A stretch of 64,000 nt of DNA, from NCBI RefSeq assembly GCF_009914755.1, contig NC_060931.1. One strand, given 5' to 3'. The translations under genes and the position numbers were made by a program. This document shows, one piece after another, positions 1,784 through 47,400 of the stretch; within the stretch, counting starts at the first letter, position 1, and each line of letters begins with the position of its first letter. The notes under the pieces were generated by a model that was not told where the DNA came from, did no database searches, and saw only the letters and a list, made by a program, of their open reading frames with translations. This DNA comes from the human T2T-CHM13v2.0 reference genome, Homo sapiens.

Positions 1784-1966
1784 CTGCTCCTGTTGAAAAA
1801 CTTGGATCACAGGAAATAGGATCATCTACATTCTCCACAAAAACTGTAAACGTATAGCTGCTGGTATTATTCCCATTATCTGTTGCCTCAGTTTCCAAAG
1901 AGTAGATTTTGGAGTTACTTGGGTTGTCAAGATTCAAAGGCTGAAGAAGAGTGATTGTTCCTGTGA
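1784..1966 (-). pseudogene. Cadherin exon A (second half of EC3)
   Basis: Acceptor tttctttttattag|TC, donor CAG|gtataa; 183 nt, phase 1-1. Reads TGTITLLQPLNLD...YSLETEATDNG...VENVDDPISC; overlaps ORF 1704..1937. Confidence 0.92.
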
Positions 1967-4356: not shown

Positions 4357-4502
4357 AGGGGTCCAAACAAAACATTTTCTGCTGAGTCTTAAAGGAATAA
4401 ATGATACTGCTATCTTCATCTCGATCTGTTGCTTTTACTCTTGCTATAATTTCTCCAACAGATTTCTTCTCAGTCACATTAATAGAATCCAAAGGAAATG
4501 GC
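4357..4502 (-). pseudogene. Cadherin exon B (first half of EC3)
   Basis: Acceptor ttttttcttaag|G, donor CCT|gtaagt; 146 nt, phase 2-1. Reads INVTEKKSVGEIIARVKATDRDED...FCLDP; lies within ORF 4346..4561. Confidence 0.92.
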
Positions 4503-6942: not shown

Positions 6943-7046
6943 TCAAATTGAGGCTTCTCATCATTTATGTTTCTAATCAAGATAATTAGTGTCCCTTGAC
7001 AGAACAGACCTGTTGTATCTGTTGCTTTCAGTATAAGGTGGAAAAC
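6943..7046 (-). pseudogene. Cadherin exon C (end of EC2)
   Basis: Acceptor ctcttttccag|GTT, donor TGA|gtgagc; 104 nt, phase 0-2. Reads VFHLILKATDTTGLFCQGTLIILIRNINDEKPQF. Not in the ORF track. Confidence 0.92.
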
Positions 7047-8915: not shown

Positions 8916-9038
8916 ATGATATCCAGTATCCAAATCCAGGGGATCTTCACCTCTTAATCTAACAACATCACTTATAGGATCCGTTCCAAAAGAGTTTGCT
9001 CCTTTCTTTGGTCCAGATAACTGTGTCTCAATGGTGTA
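8916..9038 (-). pseudogene. Cadherin exon D (middle of EC2)
   Basis: Acceptor ttattcttcaag|TAC, donor CAT|gtaatt; 123 nt, phase 0-0. Reads YTIE...FGTDPISDVVRLRGEDPLDLD; lies within ORF 8856..9059. Confidence 0.88.
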
Positions 9039-11034: not shown

Positions 11035-11129
11035 ATTCAGCCTATCACCATTTGCGAAGACCTCATCTGTGGCCGTCACTCTATAAATGGACTGAAATAA
11101 TGGATAGTCCTCATCAATTTCTAAGGTAG
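11035..11129 (-). pseudogene. Cadherin exon E (start of EC2)
   Basis: Acceptor tttctgcttcacag|CT, donor AAT|gtaggt; 95 nt, phase 1-0. Reads TLEIDEDYPLFQSIYRVTATDEVFANGDRLN. Not in the ORF track. Confidence 0.9.
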
Positions 11130-12447: not shown

Positions 12448-15265
12448 CTATGATGTTAAAAGTATTATCCATGCTTAGTACTGTGACAGATACATAAATG
12501 AATAAAAGCAAGTTTATCATACACCAATTTATATTTTTCTTAAGGACAAATAAATAATAACAAAATTGATTTTAAGATAATAAGCATTTTAAACAAAATA
12601 ATGAATTAGCTAAAACATCTATTAGAGGTATAAAAACATCTAGAAAAGATTTTGACTCAAATAATCAGAACAGTGAACTTAAATTTAAAAAAATTTCCAA
12701 TAATTAGATAAATGTCAGATTTTGTGATACTTCATAAACATAGGCCTGAGCTATTGGTTGCAAAGAGAATTATTAGAGGAATAATTAGAATAACTCAGTG
12801 CCCTTAATTAAGTCTCTGTTCTGTTACTCTTCAACTTTCTACAATAGTTGTTTCAAACCTTGCCTTTTTGACTAAAACCTCTTACACCTACCCTTCCCCT
12901 CTATCTCACTCTTCATAGAGGATCTCTCATCTTACTGCATAGAAAACAGATACCATTAGATCAGTGGTAGCTCACTTTTTCTCATGGGATCTACAAACTC
13001 ACTTCTGTTGGTACCTTCTTTACTATAAAAGGCAAGAACTTGTTACTAAAGATAATCCTTGTTCATTGGGTGGTAACACACCCTATACTTTCTCAAGGAC
13101 TTGTCTCTTTACCTCCCATCTTCAGTCACTCCCTCACTTTCTGGGTACTCTCTATTAGCACTTAAACATGCTCAAGTCTCTTTCATTTTAAAAGAAACAC
13201 CCTTGACCCTAAGCTTACCCTTACAATGTCCATATCTCTCTCTTACCCTTCAGGGGCAGAGTCTGTACATTTCTTTACCCCCTGTTCAGTCCTTAGTTCA
13301 CACTATTAGAGGTTCTGCCTCTACAAACAGAGGCTATTTCCAGCAAGTCATCAAAGTCTTCCATGCTGCCAGACCCACTGGACACTCAGTGTCCACCTTA
13401 CTTAACCTCTCTTCAACATTTACACAGTTGACTCTTCCTTCTACTCTTGGCAGAAAAGGAGAATTGCACATCTATAGGAATCACCCCTAAACTTCTGAGT
13501 ACCTTTGGAAAAACTGCCTGTGAAAATCAAAGTTGGCAAGTTTCTCAAACAGCCATTAAGTTCCCCGATCAGGCAAAGTCCTTATTACAGCTTTCCAAAT
13601 CTTAACTAACAATTTCTTAATAATCTGCAGTCCTCTCTAGCTACTGCCCTATTCTCTCATCCTTGAGTGTATTTTTTACCTTTTCTTTGACTGGACAGAG
13701 TCAGCAGTGGGAATGGAAAACAGGAAGCAGAAGCAGGTGGTTATAAGACTCAAGGGCCCTCAGTGACCCTTGAGGTTTGACAAAAGAAAGGGGCTAGGAA
13801 TTCAGGAGAGCTCAGAAGAGATGACCTGGAGTCTAACCCCTTGACCAAGAGAGTAAGAAAAAACATGAAGAGATTTCAGTTGCTTATTCATATTCATAGG
13901 CAATATCATTAGTGAAAGTGGCTGTGTATGCGTCCATGTTAGTTTTGAAAAATAACTGCACATGGTTATGAGACAACACTGCCTTTAGTAGTGAAAATTT
14001 AATAAATAATGACTTTATATCAACAAAATGGAGTAAACATTACATTTCTGAATGTAATCAATGTTCCTGCTGTAGCTTTTAAGGTGATAAATGTAACATT
14101 TGAGCACAATGTAATAGAGATGTATTCATGAAAATCCTAGTTTATTTTATAATCAACTTAAAATGTTCTTAATATGGCTCATTTAATGAAATAATTGGTT
14201 TTTGTTAGTATGGTCCAAATTTAAAAATGGTAAGTTTTTATTCATTTATATTTTCAAAAGAAATTGATAGTTTACATTCATGATCTTTCAGAGCATGTTT
14301 TCAGAGTATTATATATTTTAACTGCAATGATAAAGAGAATTTCTTTTAAGCATACACTCAAATTGAGACTCCCAACTCACTAGTACTTTTCCAGAGATTC
14401 AGCTGCAAGTAAAATCTGAATAGAAAAATCTTAAAGCTTCAAGGCATTTCAAATTTATTAAACATAAAAAATTGAAATTGTAAATAGAGACATGTAAGTG
14501 TTTAGGAGATACATAGATGGGTAGACAAGATTGACAGATGATTGATTGACTGATTGCACCTGTGCTTTGTTCCCATTTCTCACCTACTTTATTTGTCTTC
14601 AGCCTCCTCATCAAATGGATTCTCCATGTTGTAAAATTACTCATGTCTCCCTTTAAAAAGAAATCCAGCAGACTCAACTCTTGCAATCCCATATGATTTT
14701 GTTTCTTCATTCTCTCCAACTTTATGTGCAAATTAAAAAAAAAAAAGATGTTTTCTGTTTTTACAATCTCACTAATCAATCTGCTCCATTCTGGCTCCCA
14801 TCCCTATAACACCCATAAAATAGTTCTCAAACTCATTAGTTGTCACTTTCCTGATATTGTTAACTCAATGCATTTTACTTGTTGTGGAATATAAGACTGC
14901 TAACCACTGGCACTCTTGAAACACTATTCTCCTTTGCCATTCATGACATAATTCCCCTTTTTCTACCACCACTTTAGCAGCTCCTTCTTTGTCTCCTTGG
15001 CAGGCTGAGTTTCTTCCCCACGTCATTAAGTGTAGGAGTTCCTCAGGGTTGGCCCTCTGCCCTCCTTTCTTCTAATTCTCTACTCTTGGGTTAAGTAATC
15101 TCATCCAAATCCATGGTTTCAATTACAAAACATTAATAGCCCTGGGTAAGACCTCCAAGCCCAACTGCTTACACAAATCTATCCTTTGATATAACAAAGG
15201 CATATCAAAAAGGACCTTTGCAAAAGTGAACTCTTGATTTTTCTCTCCAAATTTGGTATATTTCT

Positions 15266-17716: not shown

Positions 17717-17887
17717 CTGTGCCTGAAGAAAATTTGGGATCAGCAGTACAGTTTGGAGATTCGGGAACATCAATAATATTAATGGTCAAAACATGTCTAT
17801 AGAGCCTCCCAGTATCAACAATCAGAAGAAACCTTATTGGATCTGTTTCATAATTAAAAATTTTGGTAGCAGTGATTACACCAGAAC
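17717..17887 (-). pseudogene. Cadherin exon F (second half of EC1)
   Basis: Acceptor atctctttcatag|GT, donor CAG|gtatga; 171 nt, phase 1-1. Reads SGVITATKIFNYETDP...IIDVPESPNC; lies within ORF 17682..17909. Confidence 0.92.
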
Positions 17888-27544: not shown

Positions 27545-27712
27545 TTGCATCGATGGCAAAATCTTATGTTTTATTCAGAAAACGGTAGACATCTCCCTTT
27601 CCAGCCACATCTTTATCATAAGCACGACTTAGTTGTGTTCCAGGGAGCATATTTTCAGGCAAATTCACTGGGTTAATTAAAATCTGAATTTCTGTTTTAA
27701 TGTGTGAAAACA
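27545..27712 (-). pseudogene. Cadherin exon G (signal-peptide end plus first half of EC1), carries the premature TAA at 27564-27566
   Basis: Acceptor tctttctgtgttatctcttcag|TG, donor GCAA|gtaagt; 168 nt, phase 1-1. Reads ...VNLPENMLPGT...AYDKD...KT*DFAIDA. Not in the ORF track. Alternative acceptors at 27691 and 27683 are possible. Confidence 0.85.
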
Positions 27713-27853: not shown

Positions 27854-30779
27854 CTAAAACTGAGTAAGTTTTTTTTTTCTTTAACATATCAATATTGTTT
27901 TTCAGTGATGAATTGTGTAGAACAAACTCGCAGGAAAGTACAAGTTTAGATCCCAGCTTTAATATATCTTTAGTTTATTCCTGTGTTCAACATGAATTTA
28001 ACAATTATCATGCAGAATGGTTATTTCACAAGCAAATTTTGCTAATTTCTTCCTTCAGTTTATTGACCATTTCAGTGAAATCATTTCACATGCTCACACA
28101 AGCTGTATTTTTAAATATGAAGTTTGTTGTATTACAATTTAAAATGCTAATTGAAAAAAATCAAGGAAAACACATCTCTTCTTTAATTTGCTTAATTATT
28201 TTCATTGCTTTTCTTTTTATTAGAAAGAAAAGATCTGTTTTTGGTTTAGTTGTGAGTCATTGTAAATTACATTATGCTGTACCTCTGTAGTGGAAAACAG
28301 AAATAGGCATATTCTGAAACTCATTCCCAGAATATGTAATATGACTAAAAGGAAATAATATATATAAGAAATATCTAAAACAATAATTTAAATGTTAAAA
28401 ATATTAATAAACTGATAAATAATATTTTTATGACTTTTTGTTATATAATAAATATTTTTACATAGCAAATTACTCTACAAAAAGAAGACCCTTACAGAAA
28501 AAAAATACCAAAAGTAGAATCCTGTCTAAAATAATCCAAGATTAAGAGTTGAGTTTTTTGTTCATTATTTAATATCACTTTCTCTCTCTCTCTCACACAC
28601 ACCAATACACACACACAAACAAAAGAATGAAAATGAGAAAGAAATATTCAATGAATTAAAAGGATCTCAGCAGGGATTCAAATTCCATAACTAACAATTA
28701 AACTTAATTTCCTTAAAAACGAATGAAATATCAAATTTGTATAAACCTGTGCATATTAAAATATCTTGACGATGTTCATATTTAGACCAGCTCCCCATTT
28801 GCCCTTAGCAACGTCTACAAACATATGCATGGCTTTGGCTATTAATACAAATTCAATCTTTACACAAATTAAGCCAACAAGTCACTACGTTGTTACTCAA
28901 TATTGAAGTCAATAGTTTTATTCTATTTAATTGAGTGATTATGCACGTAGGTCATATTTCAGCTTCTGTGTCTGTTTCCCGTTTGTACCTGGTGAGAAGA
29001 TTATCAGCAAGGCTAGGATCATTATATATCAACAATTTAAAATGTAAGTCTTTAGAGTTGACGTGGAGTAACCTATGGATAATTTTTGGCAAGTAGTTCA
29101 GGTGATTTAATTTTTAATCCCTGTTTACCTAATAGAAGCTGTTCTGCAAGTAGAATAAAGAATTATTTTTAATATGACTGCATAAATATTTGCAAACCCT
29201 GAGATGATTCAGTATTATTTCTGAGTGGGACTAGTTGTATACTCACCGCTCTACTGTTGGCTGAGTAACTCCAAAGTTAAGCAAGACCCACTCTTAGGTA
29301 ATTTGTAACCTAGCAAAGATAATGGCTGGATAAAAATGGCTATACCACAACAGAGTGGGTAACATGTTTCAGTAAAATAACATGAAAGTTCAGAAGAGTA
29401 AGGAAACACTTCCAAAAGAGGACGAAAAGGAGAAACCTTCAAAGAAGTGGTGGCTTTTCAAAAATGAGGCTTTGATGCTTTGAAGCACCAAAGTCTTGAT
29501 AACAGCATCCTATTAGAAAAATAGTTTTCAGCCTGTTTCTCTCAATATATGTGCATTTCTATATTCATAAATTATTTAAATGCACCACAGCATGGTATAT
29601 TTTATATGCTCATGAAATACACATGAAAACGAGAATAAATGCAAAAGAATGATATAAATGTGGAAAATATTGTATTACATTATGTTATACCTATCACATC
29701 ATATTATATTGCAAATGATATAAATATACTACAGTAAATGTTTTTCTATTTCTAAAATGTTACTAATAACATTTTAGATAGTACTTATTACTACATTACT
29801 AATTTTCATAATGAGATGACAAAGATAAATCAGTTTTAAAACTCATTTTATTAATTAATTATACAATAAATGTTAAATATTAATCATACATGTATAATAA
29901 AGTACTTAATATTTATTTCATAATACTTGGAGTGGAAAAAATTAATATGCTTTATTCTTGTTGAAAACATGATTTTACATTATATGATATTACATGTTCA
30001 TAGCAAAGATCAAAGTTCAGTTTATGTTCATACTCAGAGGATCTTAAAGATACAAAGGATCCCAAACATCCCTCACAAATATATGTATAAGTAAATAGGA
30101 GTGCATCATTTTATACTTAATAAATCATAAACTCATTTTTCGGTTTTATCTATCAACACTGAAAAGTATTGAATATAGCCAGCTGTAAAATATTCTTCAT
30201 CGTTGATGTCAATCCGATTTTATTTCAAATCAATTGGATAGTATTTCATTTTACATTTTTACTAGTTTAAAACCTACTGACATTTTTTATGTGGAAGATT
30301 TTTACACTGATTAGAAAATTCTGTTTTCCAGTACAAGTAGGCAGACAAGTGTTTACGTAGGTGACACAACTGTAGTGGTCTCAAGTCTAGAATGATGGAA
30401 ACATTTTCAAATAAGCCTCTCCATACTATGAGTTTCTTTCAGATGACAATTGCTTTCTTATTCATCAGTAAATGCCAGAATTATCTTTATGGGACTGATA
30501 AAGTACTTATTATTGTCTTTCATGAAGCAATTGTATATTATAAAATATTTTAAATAAATTTCATAGTCTTTATTGTATTATTAAATTGTATTTGTTTAAT
30601 AATAAATTAACAAAGTTGGAAAACTTGACCTTTTCTAACGGAAAAATATGTAGCTCATCCTTAAATTTGACAATTCTATAAACACGATGCCAGGGAAATA
30701 AATATGTAGGGTACAAAATATTTTTATTATTATGCCTGATCTCTTTATAAAACTGTATGATTCTTAGGGATCTGGGTTT

Positions 30780-31478
30780 TTGTTTTGTTTCCCAAGTATA
30801 AATACTTCTGATTTTATTAAAGAAAGTATAAAACATTGAATTCTACATCTTTAAACACTGGTGTTTTAATAAATAGTCGAATCAGTTTGGTCTCTTCATA
30901 GTGCCGGTATGTCCAATACTTCTCCGACTAAGTTTTTCTTCATTGGTGGTAAATCAAGTCTGCATTCCGAATTGTAGTTTTCTTCTGGCTTTTTAATAAA
31001 ATTATCTATCGCTGCTTTCGCTTTTGTTTGCATTGCCTTGCCGCTAAAATTTTTGAGTAATGATTCTAATTGTTCTTGTATTGTTTAGATTGCGGTGTTT
31101 GTTGTACTTTGTATATTCTTTATTTTTGACCCACCGCGCGCGACCCATCACCACACCGACAAAGTGGTTCCTCAAAGCAAAACACTGCGGCAGTTCCCGG
31201 TAACCAGCAGCCAACCGCCTCCTGGAGCCTATAGGGGCCTCTCCAGCCGCCACCACCTCAGCCGTCCCTATGTCCCTCAGGACCTCTTCGATTCACCTCC
31301 TCCGCCGGCCTCCTCTCCGGTGCCCGGGACACTGTCGAGCCTCACCAGCTAGCAACGACCCATGTAGAGGCCTGGGAGGCTTCTCCTTGGAGAGACTTTG
31401 TTCCAAAAATAGGCGCGTCCGACTTCGTTCCCGTCCGGCTCTGCACCATCTGACGGTGCCGTTGTAAGACTAGAGTGC
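30780..31478 (-). pseudogene. DDX43P3: Processed pseudogene of DDX43 (HAGE), N-terminus plus KH domain only, joined to a 3'UTR-like segment and poly(A) remnant
   Basis: Minus-strand peptides match DDX43 as I recall it: ASTWVVAS..STVSRAPERRPAEE, AAGYRELPQCFALRNHFVGVVMGR, GGSKIKNIQSTTNT, IQEQLESLLK..KAMQTKAKAAIDNFIKKPEENYNSEC, DLPPMKKN. Intronless. Lesions: start codon is AAG (31398-31396), TGA at 31344-31342, further stops and two frameshifts. AATAAA at 30818-30813, A-rich tail at 30790-30777, degenerate TSD AAAC(A/C)CAGATC at 31489-31479 and 30779-30769. The parent call is strong; the P3 numbering is from memory. Confidence 0.93.
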
Positions 31479-44086: not shown

Positions 44087-44452
44087 GTGTAGCAGAGGTA
44101 ACTTTGCATTCACCAACACCCATATCCTATTCTTCCTGATTCACGGCTACATCTGAGTCCTTTATGTGTGGTTAGTGAATGTGGAAGTGCTGTACACAAT
44201 TCCAGGCCTGTCACCTAAAAACCTCCAGAATGAGCCTATTAACTCTCTGTGATGATCAGACACAGAACCATCTTCAGTGATCTTTGAGCCCTACTTACTG
44301 GGAGAGCCACACAATTTAAAGAACTTTGGTCCCTAAATGACAATGCTGAAAACTACCCATCAAACAGTAACATCTGCAATAGGCTTGAGTGAAAAAGAAA
44401 TGTCTGTTGTGTTAAGCCACTGGTATTTGGGGGTTACTTACCATAACAAATA
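44087..44452 (+). mobile_element. Old MLT1 LTR
   Basis: tgtgtagcagag...ttgagtgaaaaagaaatgtctgttgtgttaagccactggtatttgggg. Confidence 0.65.
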
Positions 44453-47400
44453 AATGTGGTCACCCAAATATTCTGAAATACCATCTCTTCAGGTCATTTC
44501 AGTTATCTGAGTCTATGTAAATAAGAAAAAAATAACAGCCAGAGCTAGCTAAAATCAGAAACCACAAGCAGTCTTTGTTCACAAGTAAGTAGTTATTTGA
44601 TCTGTCCCACAACCATCATTATTTCCAATTTTGCATTGTCTACCTGAGAACTATCAAAAGCACGTCTGTCCTACTCTGTTCCCCATCTGGAAGAAAGTAG
44701 ACATGTTCAAACTTCCATAGCCATTTCTGCAGTATTGTTAAAAAATCAGTGCACACTCACAAACCTGTACTTTTCTTCCTAAAATAGGGTGTTGACCTCA
44801 AACAAAAACAGGTTTAGGCTACATCTACATGGGTGACCATGTGTGGCATAAAATAGATTTTCCAGCATGCGTTTATTTGGCAATGACTTAAAAGTGCAAC
44901 CAGATGTTTTCATAGAGAACAGCTCTTTTAGCCACAAATGTTTCCAATTTAAATGCATTTGTTTTGACTCTATTTTGCTGCAGATGGAAAACATCCATTT
45001 TCTTTCTTTCCATTGGGGATAGACAGTGAACGTTGGCAAATCTCATAGAGAATGATTACCAATGTAGACAAAACTTCGGTGAGAGCTGAATCTCCAGGAG
45101 AAAATTTTTAAAAGACAAGTTTGCATTTTAAACAGGTTGGCTCTTTTAAGACCATTTTCCCCCTCTAATTTGTACCATAAGTCTTAAACATCTGTATGTG
45201 TTTGAGCCTAGGGAACTTACCTTACTTTTAAGTGATAAGTCAAACAGATCTATTCAGAATGACAGCATAGCTTCCGGGCGTGCCATTGATAGTTACTGCA
45301 AACAGATATTTCAGATTTTCTTATCAAAATGTGAATTATGTAGGTGTGCTTTACTAAATTTTCTTGCAATTAGCAGGTTGAAATATTACAGGAATTGTAA
45401 ATGTCTTTATAAAAATAACAGAAAAGCTTTTCTTATTTTTTCAAAAACAAACTAATGTGTACGTGACAGAGTATAAAATGATCTTGGCAAGAGTACAGAT
45501 TTCTGTTTTAAGAAGCTGGGAGTTATATTTTAACTCATGAAAAGTAATGTTTTCTTTAACCAAATTATCCTTAACATTTGTTGTTTTAGTTTAACTCTAT
45601 GATTTCTGAGAAGCTTTTGAAAACAAGAAGATATTTTAAAATTTTATTTCCTGTTTTAGACATTTAAATGAGTAAAAAAGGTCCAAATACTGTTTTGAGC
45701 AGTAAAAGTATTGTTTTTCCCCTGGAAGAGTAAAATCTCTGTCAGCCAGACTATAATACTTTCACAGACTGAGCACTGTGATACACATATGCTATTTTAA
45801 ATGTATAGACCCTGTAAGAAGGAGCTAGAAATGCTAAAATGAATATTAATTTTTGCAGTAGTAATTAGACTGATGCAAGAACAATTGTCTGTTTTTCTCC
45901 TATGTCTTCCCACTTGCAAGTATTTCAGTTAAGATGTCATTCTTTGTGGAAAGTATTTACATATATGTTTTCTTAGTTTTTCCTTCTAGATAATATTAAC
46001 TTTTGTTAGATATCTTTTGATTACTTTATCTGTCATAGATATTCCAATGAATTTTCAGTAAATTAAAGTTCATCTTTTAAAAAACCACTTCACCCACTCT
46101 TCAAACTACCTGAAAGAGTTAAGTATTCACCACCTACTACACATAGTCACTTTGGCCTCATTATACAGGATATTGTTCTTACCAATGATTATCTGTTGAG
46201 GGAAATCTGGGTTTCTCCTAGACCCCACTTAAAGAGAGGAACACTGTGAGATCTTGGCCCTGTTGCAAAACCTCTCCAGTCATTCTCCCAGTTTGTTATC
46301 ACTGGGGAAATAACTTATTTTGCCAGACTGCAGAGCTGGACAGGGTTCTAAGAATGTAAAGTAGTCATAGACTGTTTAAATGATCCATTGGAATTGACTG
46401 TTGGCTGGCAGAAGTTATCGAAGTTATCTGGAAAAGAAAAAAGCCATGGTTCTCCAATTTTCCCCTAATAGTACTATGTTGTTTAATTTGTAAATTATAA
46501 TGATAAATAGCAAATATTTTCACTTTACTATTATCTCAATCTGAAATACTATATATGATGTGAGTTTCTAATGGGAGAATAAAAGAGAAGACTATCTGTA
46601 TTCTACTTGGGCTACATAATTCATGCTACATTTAATTTTTAAAAATTCTACAGCTCTATATTTTTTTCTAAGTAGTTTAGCTTTTTAAAATTATAAAGCA
46701 TTTTCAGTAGGAATATTTTATACTATCATAAAACATAATTCTTTCTTTTTAAATTCGTTGATATTATATTATGCTTTTGTATGCATTTTTACATTACATT
46801 ATGCTTAAAAGCATAGTTTTTGTGTTTTATTTAAATTAAATGTCTCAATATACCCTTGCCTCTTTTAAAATACTATTGAATGTTTTCTAACGTGTAAAGA
46901 AAGACACTCTCTCCTGCATACACAGCTTGACATTTAGTTTGTCAACTTAATATATGAGAAAAGTGTAAACAGAATATGGAAATAATCACCATAAAATTTT
47001 TATTTTTTTAACTATTATTTGGAAATAAAATCAAATTTCTAAAATTATATTAACAAATTAAATATTTACAATTATTTTTCCAAGTATCAGAAGAATTAAT
47101 GTTCAAGAATTAGCCCATAGAATTAACTTATTTGGTATGGCTTATAAATCAGTTTTCAGATGAATAACATGAATTTTCCCAAGTAATCACTCTTATTGCC
47201 ATTCTTGTCTTAATGTGAAAATTTATTTTTTTGTCCACTGGTTTAAAGTCTTTAAATGTAGCTAATCTATTTGAAAATATCTTGAAAAATTGCTAGGCCA
47301 GTGAGATTCATAAATATCAAGTTACTGTCTTGTGAATTACATTTTTCTTAAAATGTTTGCTTTTACTATTTCACATGCACTTAAGGGATGAATGTTAAAG

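What the first reader, a model, noticed from the sequence alone, without database searches (positions are those of the whole stretch)
27564..27566. Single nonsense codon in 330 codons: possible recent or lineage-specific gene loss
Seen: one TAA (NKT*DFAID) and no frameshift over 990 coding nt, whereas the neighbouring DDX43 retrocopy has several stops and frameshifts in about 470 nt. TAA is one substitution from TAT, TAC, AAA, GAA or CAA. Inference: inactivation may be recent, possibly within apes or still polymorphic. The stop lies far upstream of six junctions, so NMD is predicted. Caveat: other lesions may exist in exons outside the window or in the initiator exon.
Basis: partly seen in the sequence, partly recalled or inferred. 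Interest (0 to 1): 0.7.

Follow-up and report, generated by a model that had tools for sequence, protein, structure and literature searches.

The report
Known dead cadherin gene, CDHR17
The stop codon is one of twelve breaks in an already catalogued dead human cadherin gene that other mammals such as mice and bats keep whole, and the gene likely died in an ape ancestor rather than recently.

Summary
The TAA at 27564-27566 (minus strand) is real and replaces a conserved Lys; exons 2-8 (990 nt) hold no other lesion. But it is not the gene's only or first break. The locus is the human remnant of cadherin-related family member 17 (mouse Gm28710), 24 exons over 119 kb. Exons outside the window add six more frameshifts, three more stops and a lost splice acceptor: 12 disabling lesions. 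14 of 244 residues invariant in 32 intact mammals are also changed (intact species: 1.3%). Both counts fit a loss in the ape or late catarrhine stem and reject a human-specific one. Macaque and marmoset keep Lys here, so this TAA arose on the ape line. Mudge et al. 2019 (PMC6886504, Supplemental Data S3) already list the locus as a transcribed unitary pseudogene, lost in 'apes', with multiple frameshifts and stops. Verdict: already known; the recent or polymorphic single-stop reading is refuted. Side lead: broken-looking models in other simians, whales, ruminants, sea cows and a carnivoran suggest repeated loss.

The parts
27564..27566 (-). TAA nonsense codon in exon 2, at Lys61 of the orthologue (first cadherin repeat)
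28747..28779 (-). Exon 1 coding part (ATG at 28779, signal peptide); 33 nt where orthologues need 34; not among the RefSeq exons
   Evidence: hg38 model end of ENSG00000233491 fits here
28756..28761 (-). 1-nt deletion at codon 7 (about 28760-28761) and the resulting TAA at codon 8 (28758-28756): the most 5-prime lesion
27545..27712 (-). Exon 2 (168 nt)
17717..17887 (-). Exon 3 (171 nt), frame open
11035..11129 (-). Exon 4 (95 nt), frame open; not among the RefSeq exons
8916..9038 (-). Exon 5 (123 nt), frame open; three changes at invariant residues (G180D, S183R, F192L)
6943..7046 (-). Exon 6 (104 nt), frame open; RefSeq lists only a shorter 7010-7046 form
4357..4502 (-). Exon 7 (146 nt), frame open
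1784..1966 (-). Exon 8 (183 nt), frame open; last exon inside the window. Exons 9-24 follow outside it (places -1430 to -90390; lesions listed in the full report)
44442..44512 (-). lncRNA exon spliced to exon 2 in NR_126025.1; holds an in-frame ATG giving a 63-codon frame that ends at the TAA
14584..14719 (-). lncRNA-only exon with no match to the orthologues; closes the cadherin frame again in the RefSeq chain

Best explanation
The TAA is one of twelve disabling lesions in the single human copy of the cadherin gene CDHR17, a transcribed unitary pseudogene that likely lost its function in the ape stem (or just before it) and has likely decayed neutrally since. Shown: exon structure, lesions, orthology tree, single copy. 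Inferred: the intact gene encoded a single-pass cell-surface cadherin (signal peptide, about eight cadherin repeats, membrane segment, short tail conserved to frogs) that would act in calcium-dependent adhesion at an epithelial surface, like CDHR3/CDHR4. Inferred: no such protein can be made now, because translation from the true ATG ends at codon 8, the two alternative in-frame ATGs give 63-66-residue frames ending at this TAA, and the spliced RNA is predicted to be an NMD target. Inferred: the TAA arose after the split from Old World monkeys; whether it was the first hit cannot be told.
For: Exon 8 finds 39 proteins among 141 candidates, 70-92% identical, among them mouse LOC102640594 and two named Gm28710; a full-length query finds one named 'Cadherin related family member 17'. 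The human read-through nests with siamang, macaque, marmoset and lemur in a tree that follows the species tree. In the human genome only chr7 matches at 70-79%; the other 69 of 71 matches are 23-39%. Lesions: 7 frameshifts, 4 stops, 1 acceptor. 14 of 244 invariant residues changed against 100 of 7940 in leave-one-out counts of 32 intact species (Fisher P = 7e-6). With recalled neutral branch lengths, 12 lesions have P 6e-6 to 3e-4 for a loss at the human-chimp split, fit the orangutan, gibbon and Old World monkey nodes, and are too few for the New World monkey node (P 1e-4 to 0.03). Siamang shares F192L, A194T and Q200H with human. Mudge et al. 2019, Suppl. [quoted passage not shown]
Against: No primate DNA was available, so no lesion could be placed on a branch directly. 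No full-length simian protein was found: macaque 200 aa, marmoset 445/404 aa, so the loss may be older than the apes. G95R is shared with macaque and R204K with marmoset at invariant sites. Overall human protein divergence from macaque (15 of 180) and marmoset (55 of 424) is only about 0.6 of the neutral expectation. Counting only exons 1-21 (9 lesions), a loss at the gorilla node is not excluded under the higher indel rate (P = 0.09). The clocks rest on recalled branch lengths and indel ratios. The genome search ran with a stricter first look. The protein's job is inferred from its family only.
Confidence: 0.78

Rival explanations
1. The gene died earlier, in the catarrhine or simian ancestor; the TAA is a late passenger and GENCODE's 'apes' is too recent.
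For: All simian models found are short and lack the signal peptide: macaque 200 aa starting at a Met in exon 2 and running into intron 5; marmoset 445 aa skipping exon 3 and ending after exon 12, just before the exon where human has a 2-nt deletion; siamang 204 aa. G95R shared with macaque, R204K with marmoset. Both clocks allow the Old World monkey node (P 0.06-0.5 and 0.07-0.2).
Against: Both clocks reject the New World monkey node (lesions P 1e-4 to 0.03; invariant sites P 4e-4 to 2e-3). Neither testable human stop is shared: Lys61 in macaque and marmoset, Glu491 in marmoset. Short predicted models can come from thin RNA evidence or from separate losses. Mudge et al. give 'apes', though the passages read do not say how that was set.
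Confidence: 0.17
2. One reading: this single stop recently killed an otherwise intact gene and may still be polymorphic in people.
For: Exons 2-8 are open apart from the TAA, with canonical splice ends; the stop is absent from macaque and marmoset models.
Against: Eleven other disabling lesions, one of them 5-prime of the TAA; P of 12 lesions since the human-chimp split 6e-6 to 3e-4, or 4e-4 to 6e-3 counting only 9 in exons 1-21; excess change at invariant residues. A read-through allele at this codon would restore nothing. The siamang model omits exons 2-3, as expected if the stop is old, though this is not proof.
Confidence: 0.02
3. The locus still does something: a short peptide from the 63-codon frame ending at the TAA, or an RNA function, keeps exons 2-8 under some constraint.
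For: The locus is transcribed and spliced (RefSeq table); only 1 of 12 lesions lies in exons 2-8 (P = 0.06); splice ends of exons 2-8 are intact.
Against: 7 of the 14 changed invariant residues lie in exons 3-6. The RefSeq chain skips exons 4 and 6, adds two foreign exons and closes the frame again. The 63- and 66-residue frames cover about half a cadherin repeat and have less hydrophobic starts (1.96-2.03 against 2.3-2.9 in three orthologues).
Confidence: 0.05

Closest known systems
ENSG00000233491 / NR_126025.1, GENCODE unitary pseudogene (Mudge et al. 2019, PMC6886504, Supplemental Data S3, row 23); symbol CDHR17P is recalled, not from a call
   Same: Same locus: model ends and all ten PhyloCSF regions map on my exons; transcribed; multiple frameshifts and stops; loss in 'apes'.
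   Different: Nothing in kind. The table row does not list single lesions; the exon 1 deletion, the lesion list and the dating are added here.
Mouse Cdhr17 / Gm28710 / LOC102640594 (ENSMUSG00000109903 in the table; that these are one gene is inferred from names and from recall)
   Same: Orthologue; 83% identical over exon 8; same exon blocks (with rat and others).
   Different: Intact 962-aa frame; the mouse model lacks exon 10 and the conserved tail; 21 exons against 24 here.
CDHR3 / CDHR4 cadherin-related proteins
   Same: Signal peptide, tandem cadherin repeats, one membrane segment (family architecture recalled); automatic names of most orthologues; top Atlas clusters for the mouse protein (0.97, 0.96).
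   Different: Separate genes; CDHR17 orthologues give 6-7 Pfam cadherin stretches. No CDHR3 chain is among the best 60 of 151 PDB matches. No functional study of CDHR17 was found.
Single-lesion human gene losses (CMAH, CASP12, MYH16 type; recalled)
   Same: Unitary loss of a gene kept in other mammals.
   Different: Those rest on one recent or polymorphic lesion; here twelve lesions and an older date.

Membership tests
Unitary pseudogene | Intact orthologue in other species | tested here: met
   Full-length frames in rodents, lagomorphs, bats, pangolin, elephant shrew, marsupials, crocodilians, frogs
Unitary pseudogene | Disabling lesions in the coding sequence | tested here: met
   7 frameshifts, 4 stops, 1 acceptor
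Unitary pseudogene | No working copy elsewhere in the genome | tested here: met
   Only chr7 matches at 70-79% among 71 matches (stricter first look); exon 8 matches once
Unitary pseudogene | Introns kept (not a retrocopy) | tested here: met
   24 exons over 119 kb; all listed ends AG/GT except the exon 22 acceptor
Unitary pseudogene | Synteny with the intact orthologue | not testable with these tools
   No mammalian genomes other than the window's own; GENCODE pairs it with ENSMUSG00000109903
CDHR17 (Gm28710) orthologues | Nests among orthologues as the species tree predicts | tested here: met
   Human with simians (SH-aLRT 99) and primates (88) in a 26-row tree; no paralogue was in the tree
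CDHR17 (Gm28710) orthologues | Signal peptide, cadherin repeats, membrane segment, conserved tail | tested here: met
   All parts present as remnants; Pfam cadherin x7 in two orthologues, x6 in mouse; signal peptide and membrane segment judged by eye and hydropathy only
CDHR3/CDHR4 subfamily | Closest paralogue by phylogeny | tested here: inconclusive
   Atlas top clusters named CDHR3 and CDHR4 (the first may be the protein's own cluster); the tail query found nothing in the human genome, not even this locus
Recent single-lesion human gene loss | One disabling lesion in an otherwise intact frame | tested here: not met
   12 lesions
Recent single-lesion human gene loss | Lesion human-specific or polymorphic | not testable with these tools
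   No variant data or ape DNA; Lys in macaque and marmoset

The most novel reading that the evidence does not exclude
CDHR17, a cadherin kept from frogs to bats and rodents, has been lost independently at least four times in placental mammals (apes, with further losses in other simians; whales and ruminants; sea cows; carnivorans), so its presence pattern points to an unstudied epithelial adhesion function that humans and most large mammals do without, testable by a mouse knockout.
Probability: 0.5. Interest if true: 0.45.

Novelty: already known. Interest (0 to 1): 0.2.

Why it matters
As found, it matters little: the pseudogene and its ape-level date are already catalogued, and the stop is one lesion among twelve. 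What is of use: a lesion map including the overlooked exon 1 frameshift, the point that RefSeq still labels the locus an uncharacterized lncRNA, and a lead that this unstudied cadherin may have been lost repeatedly in mammals. The mouse gene is intact, so its function can be tested directly.

Tried and rejected
Pfam on single exons was weak: 2 of 6 gave a cadherin match, both under the cut-off. PDB search with exon 8 gave only chance or weak hits. The lncRNA exon 44442-44512 was considered as the decayed exon 1 (score 13.9) and dropped: 28779-28747 matches the orthologue leader on both sides of a 1-nt gap, its upstream bases match the longer bat leader, and the GENCODE model end fits there. 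The ungapped profile scan ranked the true exon low because of the frameshift. A tail-motif search of the human genome returned nothing and shows nothing. DDX43P3 was rejected as a clock (14% from its parent). True dN/dS could not be computed without orthologue DNA; protein-based stand-ins were used. Raw invariant-site counts for siamang, macaque, marmoset and lemur included non-homologous ends and were redone on homologous exons only; columns beside the exon 18 frameshifts were dropped, one human change (D800S) with them (15 of 246 became 14 of 244). Counts for raccoon dog, reindeer, whale and sirenians were not cleaned and are rough. A link of the loss pattern to vomeronasal or aquatic traits was considered from recall and dropped: bats and crocodilians keep the gene, and terrestrial ruminants seem to lack it. 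Paper searches: LOC100128317, 4 papers; CDHR17/Gm28710/CDHR17P, 0, 6 general reviews or unrelated (listing only); gene ids, 6 (listing only), 1 unrelated; (9 listed), none of the listed with 'cadherin-related'. Supplements of the sirenian genome paper PMC11219930 gave no hit (3 files not searched). These searches do not cover supplements of other papers, which may list the gene's loss in other mammals.

Full report
Observation. Bases 27564-27566 read TAA on the minus strand, in frame within a 168-nt exon annotated as part of the lncRNA LOC100128317. Several exons of that lncRNA translate to cadherin-like text; two of six gave weak Pfam cadherin matches.

Identity. Exon 8 as query found 39 proteins among 141 candidates, 70-92% identical, including mouse LOC102640594 and two records named Gm28710. 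A full-length pangolin query returned 70 proteins, one named 'Cadherin related family member 17', with whole frames in rodents, lagomorphs, bats, pangolins, an elephant shrew, marsupials, crocodilians and frogs. Orthologues carry 6-7 Pfam cadherin stretches, and a tail motif is kept from frogs to bats. In a 26-row protein tree the human read-through groups with siamang, macaque and marmoset (SH-aLRT 99) and then mouse lemur (88) (no paralogue included). In the human genome only this locus matches at 70-79%; the other 69 of 71 matches are 23-39% (stricter first look). It is the single human copy.

Exon map and lesions. With 100 kb downstream and 60 kb upstream added, tblastn and splice-end inspection gave 24 exons from 28779 to -90390 (window places; those under 1 lie outside). 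Exon 1 lies 1.0 kb upstream of exon 2, at 28779-28747. It starts like the orthologue signal peptide, is one base short, and reaches TAA at codon 8; the shifted frame resumes the orthologue's ILICT before a GT donor. Further lesions: TAA in exon 12 (-5895..-5897), -2 nt in exon 13 (about -9610), -2 and -1 nt in exon 18 (about -64190, -64212), two -1 nt in exon 19 (about -64489, -64590), +1 nt in exon 21 (about -82705), acceptor AG>GG at exon 22 (-83859), TGA in exon 23 (-87039..-87041) and TAA in exon 24 (-90343..-90345), plus an in-frame 6-nt loss in the membrane-spanning exon 20 (about -80875). That is 7 frameshifts, 4 stops and 1 acceptor. The exon 22 acceptor could be bypassed in frame by an AG a few bases on, and some orthologue models lack exons 23-24, so a cautious count for exons 1-21 is 9.

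What the RNA can make. From the true ATG: 7 residues. From an upstream ATG at 28798: 66 residues ending at the TAA. From the ATG in the lncRNA exon 44442-44512: 63 residues ending at the TAA. The RefSeq exon chain skips exons 4 and 6, adds two exons foreign to the cadherin, and closes the frame again in 14584-14719. NMD is predicted from the junction rule (established knowledge) and was not tested.

Dating. No primate DNA was on hand; predicted proteins were. Macaque (200 aa) and marmoset (445 aa) have Lys at the stop codon, and marmoset and lemur have Glu at the exon 12 stop. So the TAA arose on the ape line. The siamang model (204 aa) omits exons 2-3 and shares F192L, A194T and Q200H with human. 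At 244 columns invariant in 32 intact mammals, human differs at 14; leave-one-out counts for the intact species give 100 of 7940 (range 0-3.9%; Fisher P = 7e-6). I compared both counts with neutral expectations, using branch lengths and an indel ratio of 1/7 to 1/14 that are recalled, not from a call. Twelve lesions: P 6e-6 to 3e-4 at the human-chimp split, 6e-4 to 0.015 at the gorilla node, compatible with the orangutan, gibbon and Old World monkey nodes, too few for the New World monkey node (P 1e-4 to 0.03). Invariant sites give the same window. With only 9 lesions the gorilla node is not excluded under the higher indel rate (P = 0.09). Against a clean ape-stem date: every simian model found is short and lacks the signal peptide, G95R is shared with macaque and R204K with marmoset, and overall divergence from macaque and marmoset is about 0.6 of neutral. 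Relaxation may thus have begun earlier, or monkeys lost the gene separately.

The comparator. It is likely several times older than this gene's death and says nothing about recency.

What is known. Mudge et al. [quoted passage not shown] Anchoring the model end on my exon 1 ATG puts all ten of its PhyloCSF regions on my exons and its other end 69 nt past my last exon. No paper in the library holds CDHR17, Gm28710 or CDHR17P in its main text; four mention LOC100128317 (listing; PMC8832811 passages read, an unreplicated GWAS hit).

How it worked. By architecture the intact product is a single-pass cadherin whose nearest named clusters are CDHR3 and CDHR4. A role in calcium-dependent adhesion at an epithelial surface is inferred from the family; no study of it was found.

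Side lead. Humpback whale, manatee and dugong models are flagged LOW QUALITY and differ at 17 of 237, 17 of 217 and 26 of 233 invariant columns, ten changes being shared by the two sirenians; raccoon dog, reindeer and wild yak give only fragments; no whole carnivoran or ruminant protein was returned (only the best ~8000 candidates were scored). This suggests repeated loss but rests on predicted proteins. My searches found no paper on it; supplements of other gene-loss screens were not seen.

Verdict. Observation partly confirmed; interpretation partly supported. Known unitary pseudogene; the TAA is not a lone recent lesion. Interest 0.2.

Noticed in passing
proteins P0039, P0037, P0050, P0079, P0084, P0030: CDHR17 models look broken in humpback whale, manatee, dugong, raccoon dog, reindeer and wild yak; the two sirenians share ten changes at invariant residues, suggesting a loss in their common ancestor.
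   Followed up: partly
proteins P0004, P0006, P0080, P0082, P0010: All five primate models are truncated. The marmoset model starts with MHS, close to the out-of-frame reading of the end of human exon 1; the siamang model reads through the exon 6 donor; the mouse lemur model skips the membrane-spanning exon and reads exon 21 in a shifted frame, yet only 2 of 164 invariant residues are changed in lemur.
   Followed up: partly
window 30953-31476: DDX43P3 retrocopy sits 2.2 kb upstream of the CDHR17 start codon on the same strand, about 14% diverged from its parent, so it likely inserted near the promoter while the gene was still working.
   Followed up: partly
window 28798-28747: An upstream ATG, out of frame with the true start, is put in frame with exon 2 by the 1-nt deletion; it gives a 66-residue frame with a weaker hydrophobic start that ends at the TAA.
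   Followed up: yes
window places -19804 to -64121 (outside the window): A 44-kb intron between exons 17 and 18; the neighbouring lncRNA LOC105369146 (-64146..-18105) spans exons 15-18, which fits the 'two lincRNA' note in the GENCODE table.
   Followed up: no
window about 17932: GWAS variant rs12113394 (CA15-3 level, PMC8832811, not replicated in that paper) maps about 45 nt upstream of exon 3 if its position is hg38.
   Followed up: no
exon 10, window places -3604 to -3491 (outside the window): This 114-nt exon is absent from many orthologue models (mouse, ground squirrel, opossum, elephant shrew), suggesting a conserved skipped exon within a cadherin repeat.
   Followed up: no
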